A stretch of DNA of 64,000 nucleotides from an uncultured Bacilli bacterium. Its GTDB lineage: Bacteria > Bacillota_I > Bacilli_A > RF39 > UBA660. Shown here one piece after another: positions 3,846-61,510 of the stretch. The stretch's first letter is position 1; each line of letters opens with the position of its first letter. The position numbers were made by a program, and so were the translations under genes. The notes beneath the pieces were generated by a model that saw only the letters and a list, made by a program, of their open reading frames with translations, was not told the DNA's origin and made no database searches. The stretch covers positions 2,529 to 66,528 of the forward strand of contig CAJUHO010000003.1 of assembly GCA_910586195.1 (NCBI GenBank), written 5' to 3'.

Positions 3846-3931
3846 TTGATTCACTCCTTCCGCCATGACAAGTTTATGTCATAGTAATTAAATGCGTTAT
3901 TAATATATCAAACTTTTTTATATTTGGCAAG

Positions 3932-7625: not shown

Positions 7626-8162
7626 TCAAGAATGAAAATACTTATTCATCATTTCTTTTACAAAAGATTTATATTCTACTTTCTCCAATTGCTTATTCTC
7701 TTCTGCTTCTAATAGGCAAAGAGGAGGAAATAGTACACACCAGAAATTTTTGCCTTTTCCACTGCCAAGTGTTACAACTAATGACTCATACATTCCTTCT
7801 TCATAAACAACTCCTTTATAAGTTTTCTCTGGAAAATAGTGCGTTCCATAATCTATATCAAAAGTTGTATCATTTTTATTATTCTCTAAAGTAGTCTGAA
7901 TATTTTCTCTAAATTCTGGAAGTTTTGTTTTTAGTGTTTTTCTAGATGATGTTAAATTTTCCTGTGTAAGCATCGTTTTTCTTAGTTCATGCTGTAAATT
8001 AGTAGCTACTTTTTTCTTAATATTTTGATCTTTATCACTATTACTATTTGCTATTACACGAAAACGAATAGCATCTTTTGGTATTAAAACGACATCTTCC
8101 TGTGTTGATAATGCTCCTAATGTTATTATTGCTAAAACTATTAATATAACTGTTTTTTTCAT
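7626..8162 (-). CDS. spoIIR: stage II sporulation protein R
   Basis: Signal peptide; IRFRVIANSNSDKDQ and FWCVLFPPLC motifs of the SpoIIR family. Confidence 0.78.
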   Translation of the reverse strand: MKKTVILIVLAIITLGALSTQEDVVLIPKDAIRFRVIANSNSDKDQNIKKKVATNLQHELRKTMLTQENLTSSRKTLKTKLPEFRENIQTTLENNKNDTTFDIDYGTHYFPEKTYKGVVYEEGMYESLVVTLGSGKGKNFWCVLFPPLCLLEAEENKQLEKVEYKSFVKEMMNKYFHS

Positions 8163-8264
8163 CACTATCACCTTTCAATAACATGGTGAGATAGTTTTAA
8201 TTATTTTATACACATTTTTTCTAATTTTATTTTTTCCACAAAAAAAGTGAATAATCTTATCCAC

Positions 8265-10752: not shown

Positions 10753-11499
10753 TCATTTTAAAATCAATTCAAGTTTTTTTTGCAATCTTTTAACTTCATC
10801 TTCACTATTCTTATATACATCATTTGATTGCATTTTAAACGTCTCATATATTTCATATATATTATTAGGACTAATTATTCCTTTTTGGTTTAATTGTTCA
10901 ATTATTTTTTGAAACGGAAGAATATCATGTTCATCATATAATTCACCACAATCATATAAATTTCTCTTGCCTGTTATAAAATCAGTTAAATACAATCTTT
11001 TATTATCATAATTAGATATATTATTTAATTCTTTATATTTAGATAATTCATTTTCTAGTAATCTGATATCTAATTTTTTTGATGAGTTCTTATCAAATTC
11101 ACTTTCAGGTATACAAAACTCAACATGTGCTTTCCCCTTATAAAAACCATATCCACAATACTTTAATAAAATCTCTGCTGGAATATTATATTCCAAGAGT
11201 TCAAATTGCCATTTCTCATAACAATATCCATCTATACTAGAAAATGTGCACATTATAGCATCATAAGAAAAAAGAAAGAAAAACTTATAGCACTCATCTA
11301 AGAATTTAAATGTATTTACAACTTCTTCATTTCTTGTAAAAAAAGGATATACATTCTCAAAAGAAACACATCCCAAATCATACATAATGCCTTCTAGATT
11401 TTCTTGTTGACTATTTAACGTGCCAAACTTTTCAGTAGTAGAAGTAAGTGAAGGAACTGTCCTATAAACAATTGCCATAAAATTCGACTCCCTTTTCAA
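10753..11499 (-). CDS. hypothetical protein (aromatic/Cys-rich, no recognisable family)
   Basis: 248 aa ORF with an AAGGGAG RBS 8 nt upstream; inserted between prfA and rpoE; own terminator-like hairpin downstream (about 10700-10740). Confidence 0.55.
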   Translation of the reverse strand: MKRESNFMAIVYRTVPSLTSTTEKFGTLNSQQENLEGIMYDLGCVSFENVYPFFTRNEEVVNTFKFLDECYKFFFLFSYDAIMCTFSSIDGYCYEKWQFELLEYNIPAEILLKYCGYGFYKGKAHVEFCIPESEFDKNSSKKLDIRLLENELSKYKELNNISNYDNKRLYLTDFITGKRNLYDCGELYDEHDILPFQKIIEQLNQKGIISPNNIYEIYETFKMQSNDVYKNSEDEVKRLQKKLELILK

Positions 11500-16457: not shown

Positions 16458-16802
16458 ATGAATAACAATAATTATTTAAATTATCCAAATACTGGTGCAC
16501 CTAATTATACAGGAACTATGCCTCCTTATCAAAATATACAAAATCCAAATAATGGAAATTCAATCAATTTATCTCCAGAGGAATATGCTGAAAGCTTATT
16601 AAAATTAAATCATGGAAAATATGCTGAATTCTATATGTCTTACGCTGATTCTAATCAGTGGAAAGATAGAATTTTTAGGGGTACTATTGAAGATTCTGGT
16701 AGAGATTATGCTGTTTTAAAACAAGATGATGGTAGTTATGTAATTTTATGGTTAGTTTACTTGGATTACGTTATTTTTCCAGAAAAGATAACACACAATT
16801 AA
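16458..16802 (+). CDS. GerQ/YwdL-like spore coat protein
   Basis: N/Q/P-rich N-terminus; C-terminal LNHGK...FYMSY...F.G.IEDSGRDYAVL...LDYVIF block resembles the GerQ domain. Confidence 0.45.
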   Translation: MNNNNYLNYPNTGAPNYTGTMPPYQNIQNPNNGNSINLSPEEYAESLLKLNHGKYAEFYMSYADSNQWKDRIFRGTIEDSGRDYAVLKQDDGSYVILWLVYLDYVIFPEKITHN

Positions 16803-30514: not shown

Positions 30515-31912
30515 TTAATTATTTTTATTAATCTTTATGACAATTTGATAAGAATTTTCAAAATCAATTTCATCACTATCAACCTGCAATCCTTGTCTTT
30601 CTAATTGCTTTATCTGATCTCTAATGCTATTTATAGCATCTTTAATCGTTATTGGTCTATCTTCATATGACGGCTTTCTCTCATTGTAAGATGTTAAATT
30701 TCTGTTACTACCTGGTATATTTTCAAAGAAACTATTAATTTCTGCTGCATCATGATCTGTTTTTTTCGAGTTGGATTTAGAGGAAGGTTTGGTATCTGTA
30801 TCCAAGGGAGAGAAAAATTTAAATGATGGTTGTACTTCTTCTTCCTCCTCACCTTCATCCTCTGAAATTGGCACTGGGCTAATTTTTAATAAACTATCCA
30901 AATCTGCAATATTCTTCGCTGCATCATTCATAGTTTCATTAATATCTTTCGTATTTGATTTTAAGGCTGCAATATCTACTGGGCTTGCGGCTGAGGAAGT
31001 TCCAAAAGAAAAACCTTCTTCTTCATCGTCATCATCTTCATCCGGATCAATTTCCCCATAATTAATAAATTTTGGCAATTCTTCTGGTTTTTCCTTTGGT
31101 ATATCCATTGGTTTACTTTGTGCAAACACATCATTTTTCATATAATTAGGATTTCCGTCAATACTATCCATAAGCTTTGGTCTTTCTATCTCTTCTGCAA
31201 AAGAATGTCCTAATTGTATATCATCATTTGGAATTCGTAAATTAGGCACCTTAATATCTTTTGGATTTTCAATATTTTTATTTGGAACTAAATCTTCATT
31301 TCTAATTTCTTCTTTTTTTACTTCCTGTTCTAATTCACGTACAGTCATTCTAGACTCTATTACTTTATTTAACATATCCTTTTGTTCTTCTGGATTTTCA
31401 AAATTTAAAAGAGTTCTAGCATGTCGCTCAGAAATCTGTTCTTTTAGTAAAGCTTGTTGAACATCCTCCGTTAAAGCTAATAGACGTAATTTATTTGCCA
31501 CTGCTGATTGGCTTTTTCCCATTGTTTTAGCAAGTTCTTCTTGCGTCATTTGATCTAATTCTAATATTTTTTGGTAAGTTCTAGCTTCTTCAACTGGATT
31601 TAAATTTTTTCTTTGCAGATTTTCAAGCAAAGCTACTTTAGAACTTTCTTTATCATCTAAGTTACGAACAATAGCTGGAATTTTTGTAAGTCCTGCTAAA
31701 GCAGATGCTTTATAACGACGTTCTCCTGCTATTATTTCATATTTATTTCCAATATTTCTTACAATAATTGGCTGTATTACACCATGTTCTTTAATAGAAA
31801 TTGCTAATTCTTTTAAGGCTCTATCATCAAAAACTTCTCTTGGTTGAAACCTATTTGGTATAATATCATCTAAATGTAAATATACTACTTCATTATCTGA
31901 ATGCATATACAT
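30515..31912 (-). CDS. noc: Noc-like ParB-family protein with roughly 200-aa acidic, low-complexity C-terminal extension
   Basis: N-terminal ParB domain (GERRYKAS, HTH QEELAKTMGKSQSAVANK) in the rsmG-noc-soj position; C-terminal DPDEDDDDEEEG / EDEGEEEEE acidic tracts. Confidence 0.8.
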   Translation of the reverse strand: MYMHSDNEVVYLHLDDIIPNRFQPREVFDDRALKELAISIKEHGVIQPIIVRNIGNKYEIIAGERRYKASALAGLTKIPAIVRNLDDKESSKVALLENLQRKNLNPVEEARTYQKILELDQMTQEELAKTMGKSQSAVANKLRLLALTEDVQQALLKEQISERHARTLLNFENPEEQKDMLNKVIESRMTVRELEQEVKKEEIRNEDLVPNKNIENPKDIKVPNLRIPNDDIQLGHSFAEEIERPKLMDSIDGNPNYMKNDVFAQSKPMDIPKEKPEELPKFINYGEIDPDEDDDDEEEGFSFGTSSAASPVDIAALKSNTKDINETMNDAAKNIADLDSLLKISPVPISEDEGEEEEEVQPSFKFFSPLDTDTKPSSKSNSKKTDHDAAEINSFFENIPGSNRNLTSYNERKPSYEDRPITIKDAINSIRDQIKQLERQGLQVDSDEIDFENSYQIVIKINKNN

Positions 31913-35992: not shown

Positions 35993-36718
35993 CTATTTCT
36001 TATAGGGTGACTTTTTAATAGTACCTTCATCAAAGGTTGATACTATTTTATGATTTTCTAATGATACTTCTAATATGTTTTGCGCCCTTTTTCCAAAAAA
36101 TGCACTTTGCTCTCTTTTACTAAGACTATAAATATCAAAAGATCTGAAATTTTCTATATCATCGTTAGAAATACGAAATTCTGCATCTTTTCCATATTTT
36201 TCTAATGCACATAGTAAATTCTTTTCTTCACTTTCTAAATCTATTGCTATATTTTTGGGATTCTGAATAATTTCAATTCCATTTTTTTCACTTACTACTT
36301 TATCTCCCCTATATCTTTTCATCTCTGTTAAAACAGACTCTGCATTTCTTAAATAACGTAGAAAATCACAACATTTTAAAGAACATTTTCGGTTTATAGT
36401 CACTGAAGTCAAAGGACAATCTGGTAACTTCAAAAATTCTCCTTTACATTTTAATATCAAAGCATATTTTAATACTAAAGTTCCTTCATAATACTTTTTT
36501 TTAGAAGAAGATGGCGCAAAAAGTGTTCCGTCCTCACCTATTTCAAGATTTTCCAAAAATTCCTGATATTGTAACTGCTCTGTTATTTTTTCTATTTCTT
36601 TTAGATAATTTTTTACTTCTACTGTTTGTTCCATTGCCAGTTTATTAGCAACTGCTAAATCATAAGATGCCCTACTTTCTTCTTTTAATTTTTCTATTTT
36701 TTTATTTATCATATCCAT
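35993..36718 (-). CDS. hypothetical protein (N-terminal coiled coil, Cys-containing C-terminal domain)
   Basis: ORF inserted between mnmE and jag; probable start MDMINKK with an AAGGAAGGGA RBS; no family recognised. Confidence 0.55.
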   Translation of the reverse strand: MDMINKKIEKLKEESRASYDLAVANKLAMEQTVEVKNYLKEIEKITEQLQYQEFLENLEIGEDGTLFAPSSSKKKYYEGTLVLKYALILKCKGEFLKLPDCPLTSVTINRKCSLKCCDFLRYLRNAESVLTEMKRYRGDKVVSEKNGIEIIQNPKNIAIDLESEEKNLLCALEKYGKDAEFRISNDDIENFRSFDIYSLSKREQSAFFGKRAQNILEVSLENHKIVSTFDEGTIKKSPYKK

Positions 36719-36792
36719 CCGTCCCTTCCTTAATAACTTTTTCATACATGAATTTATTTACTTTATTAATAATTATTAGAATAAAAAAAGAC

Positions 36793-37407: not shown

Positions 37408-38329
37408 TTTTTTCTTTACTCCTTTTTACCAATATATTTTGGAATATTGTAAAGACATTTGTTGTTACCCAATAAATTCCTAATGCAGATGGCATAAATA
37501 AGGCCATGACAATAATCATTACACTCATCATGATAGGCATCATTTTCATATTCATGTTACCACTAGTTCCTGCTACATTCATTTTGAAAGAGTAGTATGT
37601 TGTTAAGGCGATAATTATCATTAATACTAAATAGGCATACCATGTACTAGTTGCAAAACCAATCATTGGTGTTGTTCCTAATTGAAGAGATAAAAATTTA
37701 TCTTCGAATAATGCTGGTGTTCTTTGAACTGCTTCGAAAAAGGCAATAAATAGGGGTAATTGAAGCATTGAAAACAGACATCCAGATAGGGGACTTATGT
37801 TATATTTTTGATAGACAGCCATTAATTCCTGATTTTGTTTTAACATGGAGTCCTGATCTTGTTTTCCTTCATATTTTTTTTGAATACGATTAATTTCTGG
37901 TTGTGCCTTTTTTAAAATCTCAGATTGCATTGCTGTTTTTTTAGTAACAGGGTATGCAATTAGACGAATTATTAAACTAACAATAATAATCGATAGAGCA
38001 TAACTACTTAATACTTTTCCTAATAATAAAAGAATAAATGCAAGAGGCTTTATAAAAATGCTTGTCCATAATCCCTCATATACTCCAGAATTTATCTTAA
38101 AATCTTCACATTCTGGTAATTTCTTCATTTCTACTTTATTTTTTTCATAAGCTTTTATTGTTTCCTTATCAGTTGGTCTACATAATATATTTTCTGTTAA
38201 ATTTTGACCTGTAACTTCATTTTTAACAGGGTTACCTTTTTTATCTACTAATGTTTTAGTACATCCTGTTGTTAACAATAATAAAATAACTACAATTATT
38301 ATTTTTTTCTTATACTTTGTATTTTTCAT
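37394..38329 (-). CDS. yidC: membrane protein insertase YidC/SpoIIIJ
   Basis: Lipobox LLTTGC; five-TM Oxa1 core with basic C-terminus. Confidence 0.92.
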   Translation of the reverse strand: MKNTKYKKKIIIVVILLLLTTGCTKTLVDKKGNPVKNEVTGQNLTENILCRPTDKETIKAYEKNKVEMKKLPECEDFKINSGVYEGLWTSIFIKPLAFILLLLGKVLSSYALSIIIVSLIIRLIAYPVTKKTAMQSEILKKAQPEINRIQKKYEGKQDQDSMLKQNQELMAVYQKYNISPLSGCLFSMLQLPLFIAFFEAVQRTPALFEDKFLSLQLGTTPMIGFATSTWYAYLVLMIIIALTTYYSFKMNVAGTSGNMNMKMMPIMMSVMIIVMALFMPSALGIYWVTTNVFTIFQNILVKRSKEKNGKA

Positions 38330-38672
38330 CTCTTCGCTCCTTATTTTTATAGTGACTTATCATTAATTCAAATAAACTTTCTTTCATCTCTTGATAAGAC
38401 AGTAAAAGACAGTTCTTTCTTATTATTATAATATAATTCATACTATTTTGCGAGATTTTTTTATATTCATCAATAATAGAACGTATTTTTCTTTTATACT
38501 TGTTACGAATTACTGCATTTCCTATTTTCTTACCAACTGAAATCCCATATTTATCATAACCTAAAGAATTTTTTTCATAGTAAATAACATAATTCTTATT
38601 TTTAATACAAAATCCAGATTTTATAATCCTATTAAAATCTTCCTGTCTTTTTACTATATTTCCTTTTCTCAT
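38310..38672 (-). CDS. rnpA: ribonuclease P protein component
   Basis: 120 aa basic protein with RNR-like GISVGKKIGNAVIRNKYKR motif, between rpmH and yidC. Confidence 0.88.
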   Translation of the reverse strand: MRKGNIVKRQEDFNRIIKSGFCIKNKNYVIYYEKNSLGYDKYGISVGKKIGNAVIRNKYKRKIRSIIDEYKKISQNSMNYIIIIRKNCLLLSYQEMKESLFELMISHYKNKERRDEKYKV

Positions 38673-38716
38673 TTTTTCACCTACTTAAAAGCAAAAAACC
38701 ACTGAAATCAGTGGTA

Positions 38717-38839
38717 TTATTTGCATAATCTTTTACGACCCTTGCGACGACGTCGATTTAAAATATTTGTTTTCTTACGTGCAAAAAATCCATGTTTTTT
38801 TGCTTTTTTACGATTATTGGGTTGATACGTTCTTTTCAT
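38717..38839 (-). CDS. rpmH: 50S ribosomal protein L34
   Basis: [24 protein letters not shown]...; start moved to MKRTYQP. Confidence 0.93.
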
Positions 38840-38899
38840 CCATTCCACCTCCAGACATAAATCTACATTATTATAATAATAATAAATTGTATTTGTCAA

Positions 38900-39151
38900 T
38901 TAAAAGTTATAATTTATTATTTTATTTTTCCACGATTTCAACAGATATGTGGATTATTTTTTTCACTATGTGTATAAAAAATTGTGGAAAATGTGGAAAA
39001 GTACTTTTCATTATTTAAATTCAATCACTAAATTTGTGGAAAAGATTGTGAATATCCTGTGAATTTATTTTTTTCGATTAAAATTGTTTATTTTTTCAAC
39101 AATTTGAGATACACTATTTTTAAGTTTTTAAGTTGTGGGGAGAGGGTATGA
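38900..39151. promoter_or_regulatory. oriC left DnaA-box cluster and dnaA promoter region
   Basis: TTTTCCACG at 38925-38933; TGTGGATTA at 38947-38955; TGTGGAAAA at 38982-38990, 38991-38999 and 39034-39042; each within one mismatch of TTATCCACA. Confidence 0.8.
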
Positions 39152-40519
39152 ATGAACGTAGAAATTTTATGGTCAAAATTTTTATCAACAATCAAAAATG
39201 AACTTTCCTCTCTTTCTTTTAATATTTGGTTTAAAGATACAGAACTTTATAAATTAGAAGAGGAAAAAGCAATTATTATCGTTCCAATGCCAATTCATAA
39301 AAAGCATTTACCTGATAATTATTCCGAAATTATTATTAGCACTCTAAATCAGATTACTGGTACAAATTTTGAACTTGAATTTCTCTTAAAAGAGGAGATG
39401 GAAGCAGAACCTAAGGAGGAGCTTTTTCCACCACAAACAATTAGTGAAGGCGTTCCCTCTACAAATCTTATTCAAACCAACTTAAAAAAGCAGTATACTT
39501 TTGAAAATTTCTATGTAGGAAACAGTAATAAATTTGCACAAGCAGCAGCACTTTCTGTAGCAGAAAATCCGGGTAAAATGTATAATCCCTTATTTATTTA
39601 TGGAAATAGTGGTCTCGGGAAGACTCATTTAATGCACGCTATTGGAAACTATATTGTTGAAAATAGTAATAGGCGTGTTTTATATGTTACAAGTGATCAA
39701 TTTATTGAAGATTTTATTGGTATTAATAAAAAAAATAAAAAAGAAGCAAATTTTGACTGTGTAGATTTCTTTAAAAATAAATATCGTAATATCGATGTGT
39801 TAATAATCGATGATATTCAGTTCTTAGGGCCTGCTACACAATCTCAGCAAGAATTCTTTCATACTTTTAATTCTCTTTATAGCGATTCTAAACAAATTAT
39901 TATATCTTCCGATCGTTCCCCAGATGATTTAAAACTCTTAGAAGATAGACTTAGAACCCGTTTTTGTTGGGGATTAACTGTAAATATTTTTCCACCAGAC
40001 TTTAATCTTCGAGTCGAAATTTTAAAGAAAAAAATAGCAGCAGGCAACTTTGAGAAGGAAATTCCACAAGATGTTGTGGAATATATTGCTTCCAATATTG
40101 GAAATGATGTTCGGCAGCTTGAGGGCTCCATCACTCGTTTGATTGCATATTCTACCATAATGAGTGGAGCAGAAATCAATCTAGATTTAGCAATTGACGC
40201 TTTAAAAGACTTTATTAGTAAGGGAATCTGTGAAAAAAATGATATCCATAGAATTCAGCGAATTGTTTCTGAATACTTTCAAATTTCAGTGGAAGATATT
40301 AGAAGTAAAAAGAGAAGCGCTAATATTGCATTTCCTAGGCAGATTGCCATGTATCTGTGTAGAACAACCACCAGTGAATCTTTTCCTAAAATAGGAACAG
40401 AGTTTGGGGGAAAAGACCATTCTACCGTTATGCACTCTGTTGAGAAGATTGAAAATGAAATTAAGGTAAATAAAGATTTAGCAAATATTATTGAAAAATT
40501 AAAAAAGGATATTGAATAG
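39152..40519 (+). CDS. dnaA: chromosomal replication initiator DnaA
   Basis: AAA+ Walker A GNSGLGKTHL and C-terminal DnaA signature helix. Confidence 0.97.
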   Translation: MNVEILWSKFLSTIKNELSSLSFNIWFKDTELYKLEEEKAIIIVPMPIHKKHLPDNYSEIIISTLNQITGTNFELEFLLKEEMEAEPKEELFPPQTISEGVPSTNLIQTNLKKQYTFENFYVGNSNKFAQAAALSVAENPGKMYNPLFIYGNSGLGKTHLMHAIGNYIVENSNRRVLYVTSDQFIEDFIGINKKNKKEANFDCVDFFKNKYRNIDVLIIDDIQFLGPATQSQQEFFHTFNSLYSDSKQIIISSDRSPDDLKLLEDRLRTRFCWGLTVNIFPPDFNLRVEILKKKIAAGNFEKEIPQDVVEYIASNIGNDVRQLEGSITRLIAYSTIMSGAEINLDLAIDALKDFISKGICEKNDIHRIQRIVSEYFQISVEDIRSKKRSANIAFPRQIAMYLCRTTTSESFPKIGTEFGGKDHSTVMHSVEKIENEIKVNKDLANIIEKLKKDIE

Positions 40520-40660
40520 GGGATGTGGATAATTTTTACTTATTATTTTACTTTTCCACAAACTTTATTGTAAAATAATACTTGTAAATTCGTTTTAAAA
40601 AAAGTTTTGAACTTTTTCCACAGTAATAATAACAATAAAAAATAAGAAAGAAGGAATATT
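40520..40660. promoter_or_regulatory. oriC right DnaA-box cluster and AT-rich unwinding region
   Basis: Perfect TGTGGATAA at 40523-40531; TTTTCCACA at 40551-40559 and 40613-40621; A/T-rich spacer. Confidence 0.8.
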
Positions 40661-41788
40661 ATGAAATTAACAATAAAAAAAGAACTATTACTTGATGCTT
40701 TAAATAAAGTAAGTAAAGCAATATCTACTAAAAACTTAATCCCTGTGTTAGCTGGAATTAGATTCGATGTTACTAAAAAGAAATTAACCTTAACTGCATC
40801 CGATAATGACATTACTATTGAAACTACTATTTTAGCAAATGATACAGAAGATTTTACAATCGAAAAAGAGGGTTCTATTATTATTCAAGGAAAATATATT
40901 TTGGATATTGTGAAAAAGTTACCAGATAAATATATTAATATTGAATTAATAGATGAATTGAAAATATTAATATATACAGAAAATAGTGAATTTAATCTGA
41001 ATGGTATTAATGAAAATGAATATCCATCTATTAATTTAGAAGAGAGTAAGAAAAAGGTTATGATTTCTAATCAAACTTTTAGAGATATTGTTATGCAAAC
41101 TTCTTTTGCTTCTTCTAATGAAGAGACAAAACCTGTACTTACTGGTATTAATTTTAATATAGTAGGGAATATATTAGAATGTAATTCAACAGATAGTTAT
41201 CGTTTAGCAAGGAAAGTTATAAAATTGGATAATAATAATGAAGAAAATTATAATATTGTTATTCCTAGTCATAACTTAGAAGAATTTTGTAAAATTTTAA
41301 ATGATGATAATGATGATATTGAAATTCATATTTTTAATAATAAAATTTTATTTAAATATCAGAATGTAAAATTTCAATCTCGTTTGATTAATGGAACTTA
41401 TCCTAATACTTCTAATTTAATGCCTACAGATTCTCTTTTAATCGTAAGTGCTAAATTGGATGATCTTTATAGTGTGATAGATAGGGCCAGTATATTGACA
41501 AGTGATCGTGAGAAAAATATTGTTACATTAGAGACTATGGATAATACTTTAATACTCAAATCTTCTTCTGCTGAAATTGGTAGAGTAGAAGAAAAAATGC
41601 AGATTGTTAAAAATAATTCAGAAAATATAAAAATATCATTTAGTGCTAAATATATGATGGAAGCATTAAAATCATTTAAAACAGATAATATTGATTTATA
41701 TTTTGTTGGAGAGATAAAGCCTATCTTGATAAAATCTAGGGATGATGAAACTTTAACCCAACTTGTGTTACCAATTCGTACTTATTAG
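40661..41788 (+). CDS. dnaN: DNA polymerase III beta sliding clamp
   Basis: Three-domain beta clamp, 375 aa, immediately after dnaA. Confidence 0.95.
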   Translation: MKLTIKKELLLDALNKVSKAISTKNLIPVLAGIRFDVTKKKLTLTASDNDITIETTILANDTEDFTIEKEGSIIIQGKYILDIVKKLPDKYINIELIDELKILIYTENSEFNLNGINENEYPSINLEESKKKVMISNQTFRDIVMQTSFASSNEETKPVLTGINFNIVGNILECNSTDSYRLARKVIKLDNNNEENYNIVIPSHNLEEFCKILNDDNDDIEIHIFNNKILFKYQNVKFQSRLINGTYPNTSNLMPTDSLLIVSAKLDDLYSVIDRASILTSDREKNIVTLETMDNTLILKSSSAEIGRVEEKMQIVKNNSENIKISFSAKYMMEALKSFKTDNIDLYFVGEIKPILIKSRDDETLTQLVLPIRTY

Positions 41789-41835
41789 TTAAAATAGTCT
41801 TGTTAAACTTATCACATCACTTGTGACTTTTACTA

Positions 41836-41862
41836 TTTTCCATTTGCTCTCATATGAGAGTT
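41836..41862 (+). terminator. rho-independent terminator after dnaN
   Basis: GCTCTCATATGAGAG hairpin followed by T8. Confidence 0.6.
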
Positions 41863-42167
41863 TTTTTTGTAAAGAATTGTGATTTTTGATTAAATATCTT
41901 TATTTTAAAGAATATGTATAAGATTTTAGTGATGTTTTACTATTAATTTACTACTTTTGAAAGTGAAATTATAACGACTTTTAAGTGTTTATGAAAAGAT
42001 ATTCAAAAAATACAATGATTTTTTATGTAGGGGATTAGAAAAATATGAAATTAATAAATTTTTAACATTTTTTGGTTATTTCCAGAAATTTCAGCAAATA
42101 TCGACTATACGTAGTGGTATGTTGGTAGTGAAAGCGACAAATTTCGCTTTCAGAAACGGGGGTTTTT

Positions 42168-42611
42168 ATGAAATATGAAATTAACGAAGGGACTTTAGCT
42201 ATTATGCCAGTAGGAGATGATACTAGTAAGGTTTTTGAGGATGAGGTACAATATGTAATTGAGCAGAAACCTTTTCAAATTATGGATGATAGTTGTAAGT
42301 ATTTTGGAAGTAGTTATAGGGGAAGAAAGGAAGGAGCCAAAAGTATTCTTGGTGACGGTTATAAAATACCAATATTAATTGAAGATAGTCGTAATATTGT
42401 ATTTTTTCCTACGATTTCACCACAAGATAGTGAATGTATTTGGCTTGCCTCTAATAAAATAGAAAGACTTGACTATATTGATGAATTAAATTCCAAGGTT
42501 ATATTTAATAATGGTCAGGAAATTATCATCCCAATTTCTTATCGTTCCTTAGAAAATCAGCTACTTCGTGCAACTAGGCTAGAGTCTGTCGTTAGAAACC
42601 GAAAAAAATAA
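42168..42611 (+). CDS. comK: ComK-family competence transcription factor
   Basis: 147 aa; strong ComK blocks CKYFGSSYRGRKEGA, IVFFPTISPQDSECIWL and IPISYRSLENQLLRATRL; GGGGG RBS. Confidence 0.8.
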   Translation: MKYEINEGTLAIMPVGDDTSKVFEDEVQYVIEQKPFQIMDDSCKYFGSSYRGRKEGAKSILGDGYKIPILIEDSRNIVFFPTISPQDSECIWLASNKIERLDYIDELNSKVIFNNGQEIIIPISYRSLENQLLRATRLESVVRNRKK

Positions 42612-42726
42612 TAAGAATATGCAAAATTAAGTGCATAAATGCCCATATTATGCTATAATAGTCATGTAGGTATAGGAATATTAATACAGGGATAAGGTGA
42701 TAATATGGGTCTTTTTTTGGTGATTT

Positions 42727-43836
42727 ATGATTTTAGATAGGATTAGTCTTTATAATTTTAGAAATTATCATAAAATAAATCTTCAGTTAGGACCGAATAT
42801 GAATATTTTTATTGGTCAAAATGCTCAGGGAAAAACAAATATTTTGGAAGCGATTTCCATATTAGCTCTGACAAAATCTCATAGAAGTGGTGTGGATCCT
42901 AACTTAATTAAAATAGGGGAAGAGAAAGCCATTTTAAAAGGAAAAGTGAAAGATAATAAAATTATTAATAATTTAGAAGTACAACTTGTAAATGCAAATA
43001 AGAAAATTATAGTTAATAATAGCAATATTAAAAAATTAGCAGATTATATTTCTTATTTAAATATTATTATTTTTACACCAGATGATTTGGAGTTAATTAA
43101 AGGTTCTCCTAGTATTAGAAGAAATTTTTTTAATATTGAATTGAGTCAATTATCAAAAACTTATTTAAATACCTATAATGAATATAATAAAATTCTAAAA
43201 ACTCGGAATGAGTATTTAAAATTATTATTTACAAGTAGTTTGGCTGATAAAAACTATTTGAATATTTTAACAGATACTTTAGTAGAGAAAGCAATTATTG
43301 TATATCAAGAACGTAAAAAATTTATAGATTATATTAATGAAAATTTAAGTAATATATTCTATGATATTGCAAATCAAAAGGAATTACGAATACAGTATGT
43401 AACAAATTTACATTTTGATCAATTTGATTATGATACCATTAGGAAAAAAATGTTGGATACCTTTCAGCATAATTATGAGAAAGAGTTAAATTATAAAATG
43501 ACATTATATGGTCCACATCGTGATGATTTTATATTTTATTTAAATGAAATTGATTTAAAATTTTTTGGTTCTCAAGGACAACAGCGGCTAGCTGTTATTG
43601 CTACAAAGTTATCAGAAATTGGGATTTTTGAAAGTATTTGTCATACAAAGCCAATTCTACTTTTAGATGATATATTTAGCGAGCTTGATTTACAAAAGAG
43701 AAAGAAATTACTTAAGTATATTCATAATGATTTACAAAGTGTTATTACTACAACAGATTTAAAGAATATTCAAAAAAAGTTTTTAGAAAATGCCAATATT
43801 TATGTTGTAGAAAATGGAAATGTTTATAGAAAGTAG
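42727..43836 (+). CDS. recF: DNA replication and repair protein RecF
   Basis: Walker [10 protein letters not shown], signature FGSQGQQR, Walker B LLLDDI; extended -10 TGCTATAAT upstream at 42651-42659. Confidence 0.95.
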
Positions 43837-43844
43837 GGAAGAAA

Positions 43845-45761
43845 ATGGAAGAGAAAAAATATGATTCATCTGCAATTCAAGTTTTAGAAGGATTAGAAGC
43901 CGTTCGAAAACGTCCAGGGATGTATATTGGAACTACTAGTTCGCGTGGACTTCATCATTTAGTTTGGGAAATTGTGGATAATGCAATAGATGAAGCTTTA
44001 GCAGGTTTTTGTTCTCATATTGAAGTTATTGTGGGAAAGGAAAATACCATTACAGTTAAAGATGATGGACGTGGTATTCCAGTAGATATTCATCCTAAAA
44101 CAAAAAAAAGTACAGTGGAAACAGTTTATACCGTTTTACATGCTGGTGGAAAATTTGGTGGCGGTGGATATAAGGTGTCTGGTGGTCTGCATGGAGTTGG
44201 TGCCAGTGTTGTTAATGCCTTAAGTAGTTGGTTAGAAGTTAGGGTTTATAAAGATGGAAATGTTTATTATCAGAAGTATAGTAATGGTGGGCACCCTGAA
44301 GCACAACTTACAGTGATTGAAGAGTGTGCAAAAGAAAGAACAGGAACTACGGTAACTTTTAAGCCAGATCCAGAAATATTTACAGAAACGACAATCTATG
44401 ATTATGAGATATTGAAAACAAGATTACGTGAATTGGCTTTTTTAAATAAGGGGCTTCGTATTTCTTTATTTGATGAAAGAGAAGTTGATAGAAAAGATTC
44501 TTTTTATTATGAAGGTGGCTTAAAGGAGTATGTATCTATGTTGAATACTTCTAAGAATCCTATTCATGATACTATCATTGATGTAGAAGGTATCGATAAG
44601 GATATTTCTTTAGAGGTTGCTCTTCAATATAATGAAACATATAATTCTAGTATTTACTCTTTTGTAAATAATATTACAACTCCAGAAGGTGGAACGCATG
44701 AGGATGGAGTAAGACGTGCTTTGACTAGAATTCTTAATAAGTATGCTGTTGCTAATGGTATCTTAAAGAATAATGATGATTCACTAACAGGGGATGATGT
44801 ACGAGAGGGTCTTACTATGATTATCTCTATTAAGCATCCAAATCCCCAGTTTGAAGGACAGACAAAGACGAAACTTGGAAATGCAGAGGTTAGAGGGGTT
44901 GCTGATAAGATTTTTTCTGCGACATTTGAACGTTTTTTAATGGAGCATCCAGATGAAGCAAAAATTATTGTAGAAAAGGGAATGACCGCTTCTCGTGCTA
45001 GAGTTGCCGCTAAAAAGGCTCGAGAGCTTACAAGACGTAAGGGTGATTTGGATATTACTAATTTCTATGGAAAATTATCTGATTGCAAGAGTAAAGATGC
45101 TTCAGAAAGTGAAATTTTCTTAGTCGAGGGGGATTCAGCAGGAGGTTCTGCTATTAAAGGTAGAAATAGTATTACACAGGCGATATTGCCACTTCGTGGA
45201 AAAATTTTAAATGTAGAAAAGGCAAGACTTGATAGAGCTTTGTCGAATGAAGAGATTCGTACTATTATTACAGCATTTGGAACAGGAATAGGAGACGATT
45301 TTGATTTGAGTAAGCTTCGTTATCATAAAATTATTATTATGACCGATGCCGATGTAGATGGTTCTCATATCCGAGTACTTCTTTTAACGCTATTTTACCG
45401 GTTTTTTAGGCCTATTGTGGAAGCTGGACATGTATATGCTGCCCAACCTCCATTATTCGTCATAAAACACGGGAAAACGATTAAATATGTGTTGAATGAA
45501 CAAGAAAGAGATGAGTATTTAGCAACTCTTGCTCCTAATACGAAATATGAGATTGCTCGTATGAAAGGTTTAGGAGAGATGGATGCTGAGGAGTTAAATG
45601 AGACAACAATGGATATTGAAAAGAGAGTATTAAGACAGATTACAGTTGATGATGCGATGCTTGCAGATGAGACTTTTTCAAAACTTATGGGAGAAGAAGT
45701 AGAACCACGTCGTAATTTTATTGAAGAAAATGCTGTATATGTTGAGAATTTGGATGTTTAG
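43845..45761 (+). CDS. gyrB: DNA gyrase subunit B
   Basis: GHKL ATPase, Toprim EGDSAGG and C-terminal tail. Confidence 0.97.
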
Positions 45762-45774
45762 GAGGTAAGGTATA

Positions 45775-48228
45775 ATGGATAGATTAGAAAAGAATAATAT
45801 TGTAAATGAGATTCGAAATTCCTTTTTAGAGTATTCTATGAGTGTTATTGTAGCACGTGCATTACCAGATTTACGTGATGGACTTAAACCAGTTCATCGT
45901 AGAATTCTATATTCAATGTATGAGTCTGGTTATACGCCTGATAAACCTCATAAAAAGAGTGCAAAAACTGTCGGAGAAGTTATGGGGAATTACCATCCAC
46001 ATGGGGACTCTAGTATTTATGAAGCTATGGTTCGTATGGCACAGGATTTCTCCTATCGTTATATGTTAGTAGATGGTCATGGTAACTTTGGTAATATCGA
46101 AGGTTACGGTGCAGCGGCTATGCGTTATACAGAGTCTCGTCTTTCTAAGATTTCGTTAGAACTTCTTAGAAATATTAATAAAAATACTGTTGATTTTGTA
46201 CCAAATTTTGATGAGACAACAAAAGAACCTACTGTTTTACCTTCTCGTTTTCCTAACATTTTAGTAAATGGAACGATGGGAATTGCAGTTGGTATGGCTA
46301 CTAATATTCCTCCCCATAATTTGGGAGAAGTGATAGATGGGTGTATTGCTTATATTGATAATCCAGATATTGATGTTGATGGTTTAATGAAATATATTAA
46401 AGGTCCTGATTTTCCTACTGGTGCTACAATCCTTGGAAATAGTGGAATAAGAAAGGCTTATGAAACAGGACGAGGTAGTATTACTATTCGTAGTAAGGCA
46501 CGAATTGAGGAAGATAAAGGAAAACATTATATTATTGTTGATGAGGTTCCATATGGAATTAATACTCTTGATTTAAAAAATAAAGTAGCGGATTTAGTTC
46601 ATAATAAGGTTATTGATGGTATTGCAGATTACCATACTGATTTAAAAGATGGTATTAAGATTACTATTACTTTGAAAAAAGATGCTAATCCTCAAGTAGT
46701 ACTTAATAACTTATATAAACATACCGCCTTTCAAAATAATTTTGGTATTATTTTCTTAATGTTAGATCAAGGTGTTCCAAAAACTCTTGGATTGAAAGAT
46801 ATTATCTCTAAATATGTGGATTATCAAAAGGAAATTATTATTCGCCGGACAAAGTTTGATTTGGCTAAGGATGAAGCTAGGGCCCATATTTTAGAGGGAT
46901 TAAAGATTGCACTTGATCATATTGATGCCATTATTGCATTAATTAAGGCTTCTAAAAGTGATGAAGAGGCTATGAATGGTCTGATGAGTAAGTATCATCT
47001 ATCAGAAGCTCAATCTCAGGCAATTTTAGAGATGAAATTAAGAAGATTGACTGGATTAGAACGAGATAAGATTGAAAATGAACTTGCTGCTTTGCTCGCT
47101 GAGATAGAGGAATTGAAATCGATTCTTGCTAGTGAAGAGAAAGTATTACAGATTATTAAGGATGAAATGACGGAAATTAAGAATAAATATGGTGATGAAC
47201 GTCGCACTGATATTGATATGACTGCTATTGAATATATTGAGGATGAATCATTAATCCCTGTAGAAGATATTATTGTTACTTTGACGAATAATGGCTATGT
47301 TAAAAGATTAAAGTCAGATACTTATCGTGCACAAAATCGAGGTGGCGTTGGTGTTAAGGGTATGGCAACTAATGAAGAAGACTTCGTAAAACATCTCATT
47401 AATATGAAAACACATGATTATATTCTTTTCTTTTCAAATAAGGGAAGGGTATATCGATTGAAAGGATATGAAATACCAGAATTTAGCAGACAATCTAAAG
47501 GACTGCCAATTATTAATTTGTTATCTTTAGATAAAAACGAAAACATTAGTTCGATTGTTAAGGTAGCTGCAGAGAGTGAAGAAAATAATTTCTTATTATT
47601 TACAACGAAAAATGGTTTAGTTAAACGTACGGCAATGGAAGAATTTGATAGTATTCGTAGAGGTGGAAAGATTGCTATTATTTTAAAAGATGATGATGAG
47701 TTGATTAATGTTTCTAAAACAAATGGTGAGAATGAAGTTGTTTTAGGTGCAAGTAATGGACGAATGGTACGTTTTAATGAACAGGAAGTTAGAGTAATGG
47801 GAAGAGGTACTTCTGGTGTTAGAGGTATGGATTTAGATGGTAGTCATATTGTTGGTGCAGAAGTTGTTACGCCAGAGCAATTAATTTTAATTGTAACGGA
47901 AAATGGTTATGGAAAACAAACTGAGATTAATGAGTATCGTTTAACTCATCGTGGTAGTAAGGGAGTAAAGGCTCTTAATGTTACAGAAAAAAATGGAAGC
48001 ATGGTAGCACTTAATTGTGTGGATGTTACAAAGGAACAAGATTTAATTATTGTCAGTGATAGTGGTATTGTTATGAGGATGCCATTAGAACAAGTTTCTA
48101 CATTGAGAAGGGCAACACAAGGAGTTAGATTGATTCATTTGAAAGATAATCAAAGGGTAGCAACTGTAACAATTGTGGAAAAAGAAAAATCAGAGGATAT
48201 AACAGAAGAGGAAAAAGTGGAAAACTAA
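45775..48228 (+). CDS. gyrA: DNA gyrase subunit A
   Basis: Active-site Tyr region [24 protein letters not shown]-terminal beta-pinwheel repeats. Confidence 0.97.
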
Positions 48229-48395
48229 AAGTCCACTTTTTTTGTGGAAAAGTAAAATAATTAGTTGCTTTTTTTTATGAGTTATATTAAAATGTAATCG
48301 GTACAATGAATATGTTGGAACTAGGTCAGGATCGGAAGATAGCAGCCTTAACAAATTTTATTCATGTGTACCATTTTTTATGGAGTGAATTATCT

Positions 48396-48860
48396 ATGTA
48401 TAATGAGAAGTTTATGAAGGTGGCAATTGAAGAGGGGAAAAAAGCTTTATTATGCGATGAAGTACCTATAGGTGCTGTTATTGTAAAAGATGATAAAATT
48501 ATTTCCCAAGCATTTAACAGAAAAAATAAAAGTAATATAGTAACTAGGCATGCAGAGATCATCGCAATTGAGGAAGCTAATCGTATTTTTAATAATTGGC
48601 GTTTGTGTGATTGTGATATATATGTAACTTTAGAGCCCTGTCCGATGTGCATGAGTGCTATACAGCAAGCTAGAATAGCTAATGTTTATTATGGATTATC
48701 AAATAGGAATCAGGAAAATAGAGATATAATTAGTGTTATTGCAGGAAAAAGTCATATAAATCCAAGTGTAAATTTATCTGGAGGTTATATGAGCAAGGAA
48801 GTATCATTACTAATGACATCTTTTTTTAAGAAAAGACGAATTATTAGCGATGATAAATGA
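48396..48860 (+). CDS. tadA: tRNA-specific adenosine deaminase TadA
   Basis: HAEIIAIEEA and PCPMC zinc-binding CDA motifs; start chosen at MYNEKFMKVAIEEG, the ORF-track start 48306 being probably too early. Confidence 0.85.
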   Translation: MYNEKFMKVAIEEGKKALLCDEVPIGAVIVKDDKIISQAFNRKNKSNIVTRHAEIIAIEEANRIFNNWRLCDCDIYVTLEPCPMCMSAIQQARIANVYYGLSNRNQENRDIISVIAGKSHINPSVNLSGGYMSKEVSLLMTSFFKKRRIISDDK

Positions 48861-60732: not shown

Positions 60733-61263
60733 ATGAAAACAACTGGTGTAGTAAGAAGAATAGATGACTTGGGAAGAATTGTTATTCCTAAAGAAATTAG
60801 AAGAACCTTAAGGATTAGAGATGGTGAATCTTTGGAGATATTTGTTGATAAAGAAATGATTGCTTTAAAAAAATATTCTTCTATGGATGATATGACGGAG
60901 ATTGCAAAAACTTTAGCGGATACCATTAGTTCTACAATTAAAAAAAATATTTTTATTACCGATCGTGATAGATTTATTGTTGCAACAGGAGAAGATAGAA
61001 AAAAATATTTAAATAAGGCTATATCAAGAGTGTTAGAACAGCAAATGAATGATCGTGAAGTATTAGTAGAAAAAACTCCTCATTCGATAGAACTCATAGA
61101 TGGCAAAAAAGAGGAATATACTTATATCATCAATCCAATTAATGTAAAAGGGGACGTTGTGGGATTGGTGATTATTCTTTCTCAAGAGAATAGTATTATA
61201 GAAGTAGATGAAAAAATTGCTGTTGTGATAGCAGATTTTCTAAGTAAACATATTGAAGAATAA
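60733..61263 (+). CDS. spoVT: stage V sporulation protein T (AbrB-type DNA-binding domain + GAF-like domain)
   Basis: N-terminus MKTTGVVRRIDDLGRIVIPKEIRRTLRIRDGESLEIFVD is nearly identical to the SpoVT/AbrB swapped-hairpin domain; 176 aa. Confidence 0.88.
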   Translation: MKTTGVVRRIDDLGRIVIPKEIRRTLRIRDGESLEIFVDKEMIALKKYSSMDDMTEIAKTLADTISSTIKKNIFITDRDRFIVATGEDRKKYLNKAISRVLEQQMNDREVLVEKTPHSIELIDGKKEEYTYIINPINVKGDVVGLVIILSQENSIIEVDEKIAVVIADFLSKHIEE

Positions 61264-61289: not shown

Positions 61290-61510
61290 TTGATTGTTTT
61301 GATGGAGAGTTTAATAGATAGCATTAGTTAAGAGAGTTCTTGTTGGTGGAAATAGAATCTAATGAACTATTAGATATGGCTTCTGAACTATTAAGTTGAT
61401 AAGTAAGCTTAATCGTTTAATAGGCGTTAACTATTTGAGTGTATAATGAACATTATAAAATAAGGTGGTACCGCGAAGATTCGTCCTTATGTTATAATGT
61501 TTTTTGTGTC
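61290..61510 (+). ncRNA. T-box riboswitch leader (Met-specific by context) upstream of metG
   Basis: Conserved T-box sequence AAGGTGGTACCGCG at 61462-61475; AGAGAG stem-I box near 61330; extended -10 TGATATAAT at 61273-61281; terminator T-run before the RBS. Confidence 0.7.

What the first reader, a model, noticed from the sequence alone, without database searches (positions are those of the whole stretch)
41789..42611. ComK-family competence regulator inserted between dnaN and recF
In nearly all Firmicutes the dnaN-recF gap holds the small S4-domain gene yaaA/rlbA. Here that slot is a 379-bp non-coding leader followed by a clear ComK homolog, a compact 147 aa versus 192 in B. subtilis. This is the only non-replication gene in the dnaA-dnaN-recF-gyrBA block. 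It is bracketed by the dnaN terminator and a separate recF promoter (TGCTATAAT), so it is an independent unit. Placing the competence master regulator at the origin would give it maximal gene dosage. Its presence beside many sporulation genes in an otherwise Clostridia-like region is unexpected.
Basis: partly seen in the sequence, partly recalled or inferred. Interest (0 to 1): 0.6.

Follow-up and report, generated by a model that had tools for sequence, protein, structure and literature searches.

The report
Spo0A-controlled short ComK gene beside oriC
The gene between dnaN and recF is a genuine but shortened ComK-family regulator that occupies this origin-proximal slot in a whole clade of uncultured spore-forming gut Bacilli and carries a promoter that looks Spo0A-controlled; whether it switches on DNA uptake could not be tested.

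Summary
ORF 42168-42611 (147 aa) matches Pfam ComK over the full profile (E=5e-46). It lies about 2-3 kb from oriC, between dnaN and recF, with no S4/yaaA gene in that gap.

It is not a local insertion. All 27 related loci examined carry dnaN-comK-recF, down to 32% ComK identity.

The functional part of the 379-bp leader is only its last ~90 bp:
- three direct 7-mers at a 10-bp period, consensus TTCGACA (reverse complement of the Spo0A box TGTCGAA);
- an extended -10 with no -35;
- a 5' hairpin and a GGGGG Shine-Dalgarno.

A metagenome scan for this promoter layout found it in front of spo0A itself, orphan histidine kinases, AbrB-type genes and comK. This suggests comK belongs to a Spo0A regulon.

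The protein lacks the B. subtilis C-terminal segment that holds the MecA degron and is needed for activation. No exact K-box is present near it. Its predicted fold is LytTR-like.

A role in competence is inferred from homology only. Late competence genes could not be searched in this genome. I rate it a new variant of a known kind, of moderate interest.

The parts
41846..41869 (+). Intrinsic terminator of dnaN (GCTCTCATATGAGAGT plus T-run)
   Evidence: the only terminator-like site in 41500-43000 (0.3 expected). Relatives have an equivalent hairpin plus T-run directly before the comK promoter.
41870..42079 (+). Non-conserved AT-rich spacer (distal part of the 'leader'), specific to this genome and its closest relatives
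   Evidence: No ORF of 20 aa or more. Absent or much shorter in relatives, where the whole spacer is 114-225 bp. The 14-nt repeat AAATATGAAATTAA (42041 and 42171) is at chance level for AT-rich DNA (about 0.4 expected by my estimate).
42080..42106 (+). Three direct 7-mers at a 10-bp period: TTCCAGA-AAT-TTCAGCA-AAT-ATCGACT, each 5/7 to the consensus TTCGACA (reverse complement of the Spo0A 0A box TGTCGAA)
   Evidence: Anchored alignment of 14 lineages. The 39-box consensus is T33 T31 C24 G26 A36 C32 A27. A PWM built without the window's own site ranks this site 1 of 127,948 positions (18.8 bits, next best 9.5). The same layout lies upstream of spo0A, histidine kinases and abrB-type genes in metagenomes. 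0A-box consensus from PMC3485338.
42115..42123 (+). Extended -10 promoter element TGGTATGTT of comK; no -35 hexamer at 17 bp
   Evidence: TGnTAnnnT lies exactly 11 bp after the last box in all 14 lineages. This is an inferred promoter; no transcript data.
42129..42152 (+). Stem-loop at the 5' end of the comK leader: TGAAAGCGA-CAAATT-TCGCTTTCA (9 bp, -11.7 kcal/mol)
   Evidence: A hairpin at the same place in all 15 lineages folded, dG -4.4 to -14.8, z -1.0 to -5.3. Loop length varies (4-11 nt) and stems show compensatory changes (L009 AAACCA/TGGTTT, L010 GAAAAGG/CCTTTTC). It is absent in some deeper lineages with short leaders.
42158..42162 (+). Shine-Dalgarno GGGGG of comK
   Evidence: Conserved in all leaders.
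42168..42611 (+). Short-form ComK-family protein gene (147 aa)
42618..42637 (+). Weak hairpin after comK (TATGCA-N8-TGCATA) without a T-run; not a canonical terminator
   Evidence: Read from the sequence. Not called by the terminator scan. L006, L007 and L010 have a hairpin plus T-run at the same place.
42651..42659 (+). recF extended -10 promoter TGCTATAAT
   Evidence: TATGnTATAAT is invariant in 10 of 10 aligned lineages.
42660..42740 (+). Conserved recF 5' leader: GTATAGGAATAT element (42670-42681), Shine-Dalgarno AAGGTGAT (42694-42701), and uORF 42705-42740 ([11 protein letters not shown]) overlapping the recF start at 42727
   Evidence: Nucleotide-level conservation exceeds that of the ComK protein. 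A uORF ATG at -22/-23, of 7-11 codons, with its stop overlapping the recF start, occurs in 16 of 16 lineages. No consensus RNA fold and no Rfam hit.

Best explanation
This is the local copy of an ancient, orthologous short-form ComK-family DNA-binding regulator. It has replaced the usual S4/yaaA gene in the dnaN-recF slot throughout a broad clade of low-GC, mostly uncultured, spore-forming gut Bacilli (the group around RFN20, RF39, ML615J-28 and Erysipelotrichales).

It has its own promoter. Transcription from dnaN stops at a terminator. The comK promoter has an extended -10, no -35, and three tandem Spo0A-type boxes spanning roughly -50 to -24. The mRNA begins with a stabilising stem-loop and has a strong Shine-Dalgarno.

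The most likely mechanism is that phosphorylated Spo0A binds the tandem boxes and turns comK on at the transition to stationary phase or sporulation, together with spo0A itself and orphan sporulation kinases that share the same promoter geometry. The ComK protein then binds DNA through a LytTR-like beta fold.

By homology it probably controls DNA-uptake and recombination (K-state-like) genes. It must be regulated differently from B. subtilis ComK, because it lacks the C-terminal segment that carries the MecA/ClpCP degron and is required for activation at comG.

Shown: family membership, conserved position, promoter anatomy, and co-occurrence of that promoter layout with spo0A, kinase and abrB-type genes. 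Inferred: Spo0A binding, activation rather than repression, and the identity of the target genes.
For: - Family: Pfam ComK E=5e-46; 36% identity to B. subtilis ComK over the core; invariant motifs.
- Position: dnaN-comK-recF in every locus examined. oriC lies at about 39-40 kb.
- Promoter: three 10-bp-phased TTCGACA repeats ending 11 bp before TGnTAnnnT in 14 lineages. The site is unique in the window.
- 0A box: the consensus TGTCGAA is recognised alike by Bacillus and Clostridioides Spo0A (PMC3485338).
- Regulon signature: 109 metagenomic sites share the layout. Collapsed at 90% identity, the downstream genes are 25 histidine kinases, 10 ComK, 4 Spo0A (PF08769, E=1e-41) and 2 AbrB-type. Most of the rest lie on contigs above 35% GC and are probably chance matches.
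- Precedent: B. subtilis Spo0A~P binds PcomK directly at boxes with up to 2/7 mismatches (PMC3297582).
- Spore former: the window encodes SpoIIR, GerQ and SpoVT. The clade is reported to encode spo0A (PMC10868615).
- Hairpin.
- Missing C-terminus.
- Fold.
Against: - No late competence gene (comG, comE, comF, dprA) was seen in the window or in about 1 Mb of fetched loci. Those loci are not a genome sample, so this says nothing either way.
- No exact K-box lies in the comK leader or the recF spacer, and K-boxes are not enriched in the window (33 found against 26±5 expected).
- In B. subtilis, deleting the 25 C-terminal residues abolishes activation at comG, and the naturally truncated B. cereus ComK2 lowers comG expression (PMC3128618). 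A short form may therefore not be an activator.
- The window's own boxes are degenerate (5/7 each), and the simple tandem pattern is not matched at up to 2 mismatches.
- Some lineages (L014, L018) have TGACA or AGACA in place of the CGACA core.
- The Spo0A and kinase loci from the scan were not proven to come from the same genomes as the ComK loci. They share only low GC and habitat.
- The position of the boxes is compatible with repression as well as activation.
Confidence: 0.55

Rival explanations
1. Same protein and same Spo0A control, but it is not a competence regulator. On this reading the short ComK-family protein is a sporulation or transition-state DNA-binding factor. It might repress or remodel DNA, or couple sporulation entry to replication and recombination at the adjacent oriC/dnaA-dnaN/recF region. 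Its origin-proximal position would then matter for timing or dosage.
For: - It lacks the C-terminal activation and degron region.
- The truncated B. cereus ComK2 decreases comG expression.
- No exact K-boxes nearby.
- It is co-regulated by promoter layout with spo0A and sporulation kinases rather than with any DNA-uptake gene seen.
- Its position next to oriC is strictly conserved over deep divergence.
Against: - The core of the protein, including all motifs shared with B. subtilis ComK, is strongly conserved.
- The dnaA-dnaN-recF-gyrBA block is one of the most rearrangement-resistant in bacteria, so positional conservation may be a frozen accident (my inference from general knowledge).
- The PWM scan of the window found no second site for the three-box element, but that element is read here as the Spo0A site, not a ComK site, so ComK targets near oriC or recF were not tested.
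Confidence: 0.25
2. The TTCGACA direct repeats are bound by the ComK-family protein itself. That would be positive autoregulation through a LytTR-like fold that reads direct repeats, and spo0A and the kinases would then be ComK targets rather than co-regulated genes.
For: - B. subtilis ComK autoregulates (abstract of PMC3297582).
- In some relatives there is no room for any other upstream operator between the dnaN terminator and the promoter.
Against: - The consensus is an exact match to the established 0A box.
- The Spo0A proteins found behind the same promoters have a full Spo0A_C domain (E=1e-41) with the recognition helix SRVERAIRHAIEV conserved.
- LytTR sites have a period of about 21 bp, not 10 bp, and B. 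subtilis ComK binds A4-N5-T4 boxes in the minor groove (my knowledge).
Confidence: 0.08
3. One reading: a recent, lineage-specific insertion of a competence master regulator at the origin, selected for maximal gene dosage and unexpected in a Clostridia-like sporulating genome.
For: The gene is 2-3 kb from oriC and replaces the usual yaaA slot.
Against: - The arrangement is shared by all relatives, down to 32% ComK and 39% DnaA identity.
- GC content is not distinct from the surroundings.
- The lineage is Bacilli, not Clostridia.
Confidence: 0.04
4. A decaying or functionless relic that merely persists in a stable gene cluster.
For: The window's 0A-like boxes are degenerate (5/7 each), and its leader has gained about 150-250 bp of non-conserved DNA.
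Against: - The ORF is intact and full-length in every lineage.
- 28 residues are invariant.
- The model is confident and compact.
- Promoter, hairpin and Shine-Dalgarno are conserved.
Confidence: 0.03

Closest known systems
Bacillus subtilis ComK (192 aa), master activator of late competence genes
   Same: - Same Pfam family over the whole core and 36% identity.
- Shared motifs: CxFFGSSYxGRK, KPPI, FPT, C-W and SYxSFENQ.
- In both organisms the comK promoter carries Spo0A boxes (PMC3297582).
- Both organisms sporulate.
   Different: - Lacks about 9 N-terminal and about 35 C-terminal residues. The missing C-terminus includes the MecA/ClpCP degron FMLYPKEERT... (PMC8138137) and the 25 residues needed for activation at comG (PMC3128618).
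- No exact K-box at its own promoter.
- The gene sits at oriC between dnaN and recF, not at a distant locus (B. subtilis position from my knowledge).
- The promoter is a compact three-box, extended -10 type with no room for the Rok, CodY, DegU and ComK sites of PcomK.
Bacillus cereus ComK2 (C-terminally truncated ComK paralog)
   Same: A naturally short ComK lacking the C-terminal activation region (PMC3128618).
   Different: ComK2 coexists with a full-length ComK1 and lowers comG expression. Here the short form is the only ComK seen at this locus and is the norm for the clade, where nearly all of the top 120 homologs are 145-157 aa. Whether a second, long ComK exists elsewhere in the genome is unknown.
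Spo0A-dependent promoters (spo0A, spoIIG/spoIIE-type, abrB) with tandem 0A boxes
   Same: - The 7-mer consensus is identical to the 0A box.
- The boxes are tandem and head-to-tail with 3-bp spacers.
- The boxes overlap the -35 region of a promoter that lacks a -35 at normal spacing.
- The same layout lies upstream of spo0A and kinase genes.
   Different: Binding has not been demonstrated. The window's boxes are 5/7 each. Whether Spo0A activates or represses here is unknown.
LytTR DNA-binding domains (AgrA, pneumococcal ComE, 3d6w)
   Different: There is no sequence-level relationship (9-14% identity, no Pfam LytTR hit). ComK has an extra long C-terminal helix and no receiver domain.
yaaA/rlbA (S4-domain gene) in the dnaN-recF slot of most Bacillota
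   Same: Same chromosomal slot.
   Different: An unrelated protein. No S4 ORF is present in either spacer here or in relatives. The DUF721/remB gene usually found between recF and gyrB is also absent (recF ends at 43836, gyrB starts at 43845).

Membership tests
ComK family (Pfam PF06338) | Full-length profile match above the curated threshold | tested here: met
   E=5.3e-46, 156.6 bits against a cut-off of 22.3, profile positions 3-151 of 152. All 206 homologs also carry PF06338.
ComK family (Pfam PF06338) | Conserved core motifs shared with B. subtilis ComK | tested here: met
The invariant clade columns C43, G47, S48, Y50, G52, R53, Y65, K66, P68, F80, P81, T82, C90, S124, N130 and Q131 coincide with them.
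B. subtilis-type ComK competence switch | C-terminal region carrying the MecA/ClpCP degron (FMLYPK...) and required for transcription activation | tested here: not met
   The protein ends at the position equivalent to about residue 157 of 192. Degron location from PMC8138137. Requirement of the C-terminal 25 aa from PMC3128618.
B. subtilis-type ComK competence switch | K-boxes (AAAA-N5-TTTT pairs) at its own promoter (autoregulation) | tested here: not met
   No exact A4N5T4 in 41789-42167 or 42612-42726. The window total is 33 against 26±5 expected. The binding specificity of the short form is unknown, so this does not exclude autoregulation.
B. subtilis-type ComK competence switch | Controls late competence operons (comG, comE, comF, dprA, ssbB) present in the same genome | not testable with these tools
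   None are in the 64-kb window. No literature was found.
Spo0A regulon promoter | 0A boxes matching TGTCGAA near the promoter | tested here: met
   Three boxes with consensus TTCGACA (reverse complement), each 5/7 in the window and 6-7/7 in several relatives. Consensus from PMC3485338.
Spo0A regulon promoter | Same motif and layout upstream of hallmark Spo0A targets (spo0A, kinases, abrB) | tested here: met
   Metagenome scan: 25 histidine-kinase, 10 ComK, 4 Spo0A and 2 AbrB-type clusters at 90% identity.
Spo0A regulon promoter | The organism encodes Spo0A | not tested
   spo0A is not in the window. The indirect evidence is SpoIIR, GerQ and SpoVT in the window, and the clade being reported to encode spo0A (PMC10868615).
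Spo0A regulon promoter | Direct binding of Spo0A~P and Spo0A-dependent expression | not testable with these tools
   Needs EMSA, ChIP or a reporter assay.
LytTR DNA-binding fold | Structural superposition with solved LytTR domains | tested here: met
LytTR DNA-binding fold | Sequence-profile membership (Pfam LytTR) | tested here: not met
   Only PF06338 is reported at E up to 1.
Canonical Bacillota dnaN-yaaA(S4)-recF-remB-gyrB arrangement | A small S4-domain ORF between dnaN and recF | tested here: not met
   ComK is the only ORF of 20 aa or more in the gap. The same holds in the relatives whose gene calls were returned with Pfam annotation.

The most novel reading that the evidence does not exclude
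The short ComK-family protein is not a competence switch at all. Instead it is a Spo0A-induced, origin-encoded DNA-binding factor that couples entry into sporulation or stationary phase with chromosome replication or recombination in reduced-genome gut Bacilli. Its invariant position next to oriC/dnaA-dnaN and recF would then be functionally required, through replication-coupled dosage or timing, or through local action on oriC or recF.
Probability: 0.15. Interest if true: 0.75.

Novelty: new variant of a known kind. Interest (0 to 1): 0.45.

Why it matters
ComK has been studied almost only in Bacillus, Listeria and Staphylococcus. Here a short ComK lacking the MecA/ComS control module is a fixed, origin-proximal gene in a large clade of uncultured gut Bacilli. 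One member, annotated 'Mycoplasma sp. CAG:877', is indexed in 1178 blocks of the assembly collection.

The comK promoter shares its layout with spo0A and orphan sporulation kinases. If the protein does drive DNA uptake, these reduced-genome commensals would be naturally transformable under direct Spo0A control. That bears on horizontal gene transfer in the gut and on the genetic tractability of these organisms.

It would also show that the Spo0A-to-ComK link predates the elaborate B. subtilis circuit. The tandem-box plus extended -10 pattern is in addition a practical handle for predicting Spo0A regulons in uncultured low-GC Bacilli.

Tried and rejected
- Rfam at a permissive threshold on 38000-46000 found nothing.
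- NCBIfam has no ComK hit. PHROGs gave only a marginal hit of unknown function.
- The PDB sequence search found no relative.
- RNAalifold on the recF leader gave no consensus fold (-0.63 kcal/mol). I therefore dropped the idea of a riboswitch-like element and the long-range pairing 42637-42651/42700-42714.
- I considered the palindrome TGAAAGCG...CGCTTTCA as a cre or LacI-type operator and rejected it, because the gap between the half-sites varies from 4 to 11 nt among lineages.
- I considered a CodY-like box (TTCCAGAAATTT) and did not pursue it, because it is confined to the closest relatives.
- I considered the 14-nt duplicate of the comK start (42041 and 42171) as a partial duplication. It is at chance level.
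- I looked for abrB in the window as an internal 0A-box control. The candidate ORF turned out to be the reverse frame of spoVT.
- Plain 0A-box counts in the window are at chance level.
- Literature searches for ComK with Erysipelotrichia, Tenericutes, RFN20, RF39 or dnaN-recF found nothing relevant. The supplement of PMC10868615 holds no competence KOs.
- A regex search for prepilin and ComGA signatures in about 1 Mb of fetched loci found none, which is uninformative.
- I could not list distant ComK relatives with context, because only the best 120 hits are shown.

Full report
**Observation.** The window contains rpmH/rnpA/yidC/jag on the minus strand. On the plus strand it has dnaA (39152-40519), dnaN (40661-41788), a 147-aa ORF (42168-42611), recF (42727-43836), gyrB and gyrA. 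GC skew changes sign at about 39-40 kb, so this is the replication origin region. The 147-aa ORF matches Pfam ComK (PF06338) at E=5.3e-46 over profile positions 3-151 of 152. The dnaN-comK gap is 379 bp and has no ORF of 20 aa or more. A dnaN terminator lies at 41846-41861 plus a T-run. The TGCTATAAT element in front of recF is at 42651-42659. Two details need correcting. No canonical terminator follows comK in this window; there is only a 6-bp hairpin without a T-run. Also, most of the 379 bp is non-conserved spacer.

**It is not a local insertion.** A genome scan found eight related loci in MAGs labelled uncultured Bacilli, Tenericutes or Erysipelotrichaceae. Every one with enough contig shows dnaA-dnaN-comK-recF-gyrB-gyrA. 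Context look-ups for seven further homologs at 51-95% identity gave the same order each time. These include a protein annotated '[Mycoplasma sp. CAG:877]' that is indexed in 1178 blocks of the assembly collection. Fourteen more ComK loci were later found through the promoter motif alone, independently of protein similarity. They collapse to 10 clusters at 90% identity. All lie between dnaN and recF, at ComK identities down to 32% and DnaA identities down to 39%. The arrangement is therefore ancient and fixed in this clade. No S4/yaaA gene is in the slot, and recF abuts gyrB with no remB gene.

**Which organism.** The window is 29% GC. It encodes genuine endospore genes: SpoIIR (7626-8171), GerQ (16458-16802) and SpoVT (60733-61263). 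It also has PBP1, MreB/Mbl and MurA, so the organism is a walled spore former. A 2024 study of GTDB Bacilli predicts that RFN20 families CAG-631 and CAG-449, RF39, ML615J-28 and Erysipelotrichales include spore formers that encode spo0A (PMC10868615). 'Clostridia-like' is therefore a misreading. Several of the 'sporulation-named' genes near the origin (spoIIIJ/yidC, jag, soj/spo0J) are ordinary origin genes, but real sporulation genes are present too. No late competence gene lies in the window.

**The protein.**
- The closest 120 homologs are almost all 145-157 aa.
- A search of 1.84 billion cluster representatives finds 1239 family members. Both short (about 147-157 aa) and long (about 185-200 aa) forms occur, and the short forms are the nearest.
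- The missing C-terminus contains the MecA/ClpCP degron FMLYPKEERT... (PMC8138137).
- The missing C-terminus also includes the 25 residues whose deletion abolishes activation at comG while preserving DNA binding. B. cereus ComK2, naturally truncated by 22 residues, lowers comG expression (PMC3128618).
- 28 residues are invariant across 35 clade members.
- The AlphaFold model is confident (pLDDT 94.5, pTM 0.89).
- A 2026 preprint already remarks on similarity among ComK, AgrA-LytTR, RemA and SwrD (PMC13232269).

**The comK control region.** Only the last ~90 bp before the start codon is conserved. Anchored alignment of 14 lineages shows three direct 7-mers at a strict 10-bp period. The last one ends 11 bp before TGnTAnnnT, and there is no -35 at normal spacing. 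The consensus of 39 boxes is TTCGACA. This is the reverse complement of the Spo0A 0A box TGTCGAA, whose recognition is conserved between Bacillus and Clostridioides (PMC3485338). In the window the boxes are TTCCAGA, TTCAGCA and ATCGACT (42080-42106), each 5/7. A PWM built without the window's own site, with its close relatives down-weighted, ranks this site first of 127,948 positions in the window (18.8 bits, next best 9.5). Downstream of the inferred start site, every one of 15 lineages has a stem-loop with a GAAAAC/GTTTTC core 2-6 nt before a GGGGG Shine-Dalgarno. Loop length varies and stems carry compensatory changes. This argues for an RNA hairpin, probably a 5' stabiliser, rather than an operator.

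**Test of the Spo0A reading.** I scanned the metagenome collection for TTCGAC-N4-TNCGACA-N8-TGNTATNNT and obtained 109 sites. I then classified the first ORF downstream of each site.

| Downstream gene | Sites | Clusters at 90% identity |
|---|---|---|
| Histidine kinases (membrane, about 400 aa, and soluble, about 204 aa; HisKA + HATPase) | 39 | 25 |
| ComK | 14 | 10 |
| Spo0A (PF08769, E=1.3e-41, with the recognition helix SRVERAIRHAIEV) | 5 | 4 |
| AbrB/SpoVT-type | 2 | 2 |
| Small unknown proteins (56-aa class and 131-aa class) | 6 | 3 |
| Other, including one MvaI-type restriction enzyme | 26 | 24 |
| No usable ORF | 17 | not clustered |

Most of the 'other' group lies on contigs above 35% GC and is probably chance. 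A promoter layout shared by spo0A itself, orphan kinases, abrB-type genes and comK is what a Spo0A regulon looks like. In B. subtilis, Spo0A~P binds PcomK directly at activating and repressing boxes that have up to 2/7 mismatches (PMC3297582). I therefore conclude, with moderate confidence, that comK in this clade is a direct Spo0A target. Activation is the more likely direction, because the same geometry serves spo0A and the kinase genes and the promoter has no -35. The alternative, that ComK itself reads these repeats, is less parsimonious but not excluded.

**What remains open.** Nothing here shows that the protein controls DNA uptake. Exact A4-N5-T4 boxes are absent from the leader and from the recF spacer, and they are at chance frequency in the window. 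Literature searches found no study of ComK in these lineages or of a ComK gene in the dnaN-recF slot.

**recF.** The comK-recF spacer is more conserved at the nucleotide level than ComK is at the protein level.
- It holds an invariant extended -10 (TATGnTATAAT).
- It holds a GTATAGGAATAC element.
- A Shine-Dalgarno (AGGTGAT) is followed by an ATG at -22/-23. This opens a 7-11-codon uORF whose stop overlaps the recF start, often as ATGA, in 16 of 16 lineages.
- It has no consensus RNA fold and no Rfam match.

recF therefore has its own promoter and is probably translated by coupling to the uORF. Read-through from comK is possible in this genome.

**Verdict.** This is a real short-form ComK-family gene at a clade-wide conserved origin-proximal position, with a promoter that places it in a Spo0A-type regulon. 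It is a new variant of a known kind. The family and the Spo0A-ComK link are known from B. subtilis. The truncated form as the sole visible ComK, its fixed dnaN-recF location and the compact three-box promoter are not described in the literature I could search. Interest is moderate (0.45). It would rise if the clade proves to carry a DNA-uptake machinery under this regulator, or if the protein turns out to act on replication or recombination instead.

Noticed in passing
window 42612-42740 (and L001-L021 equivalents): The recF promoter and leader are nearly invariant at the nucleotide level across lineages whose ComK proteins are only about 50-77% identical. The leader holds an extended -10, a GTATAGGAATAC element, a strong Shine-Dalgarno and a 7-11-codon uORF whose stop overlaps the recF ATG (often ATGA) in 16 of 16 lineages. 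This suggests translational coupling and possibly an operator. No RNA fold and no Rfam hit.
   Followed up: partly
window 42129-42152: A conserved stem-loop at the 5' end of the comK mRNA with compensatory changes and variable loop length in 15 lineages. Its arms resemble cre half-sites (TGAAAGCG/CGCTTTCA), but the gap between them is variable.
   Followed up: yes
L022-L130 (metagenome loci): The promoter layout of tandem TTCGACA boxes, 11 bp, then an extended -10 recurs in low-GC gut contigs. It lies in front of about 400-aa polytopic histidine kinases, about 204-aa soluble HisKA kinases, Spo0A, 77-aa AbrB-type proteins with a Cys-rich tail, a 56-aa protein, an unknown protein of at least 131 aa, and one MvaI/BcnI restriction endonuclease (L090). 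This is a ready-made candidate Spo0A regulon for uncultured Bacilli.
   Followed up: partly
window 41870-42079: About 150-250 bp of extra, non-conserved AT-rich DNA lies between the dnaN terminator and the comK promoter. It is absent from L001 and shorter in the 95%-identical relative L013. It contains a 14-nt exact copy of the comK start region (42041-42054 against 42171-42184), which is at chance level.
   Followed up: yes
window 30515-31912 (-): A second ParB-family protein of 465 aa (ParB_N plus HTH_ParB in the first 200 residues, then a long C-terminal extension with no Pfam hit). It lies upstream of the parA/parB pair and is conserved as a 405-442-aa protein in L009 and L010. It may be a Noc-like protein with an unusual tail.
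   Followed up: no
window 12223-14328 (-): The ArgS ORF is 701 aa, and the first Pfam domain starts only at residue 123. Either there is an N-terminal extension of about 120 aa or the mechanically chosen start codon is too far upstream.
   Followed up: no
window 48290-48388 and 48306-48860: The SRP RNA (Rfam 65.8 bits) overlaps the 5' part of the mechanically called 184-aa deaminase (tadA) ORF. The real tadA start is probably about 30 codons further in, since the Pfam domains start at residue 33.
   Followed up: no
window 35993-36745 (-), 10753-11499 (-): Two ORFs of about 250 aa with no Pfam match. The one between mnmE and jag occupies a variable slot that holds an acetyltransferase in L009 and a MerR regulator in L014.
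   Followed up: no
window 61290-61491, 3854-3884: A T-box leader lies upstream of metG, and an L31-Firmicutes ribosomal leader lies at 3854-3884 on the minus strand. Both are ordinary, and both score above the Rfam gathering threshold.
   Followed up: no
   Followed up: partly
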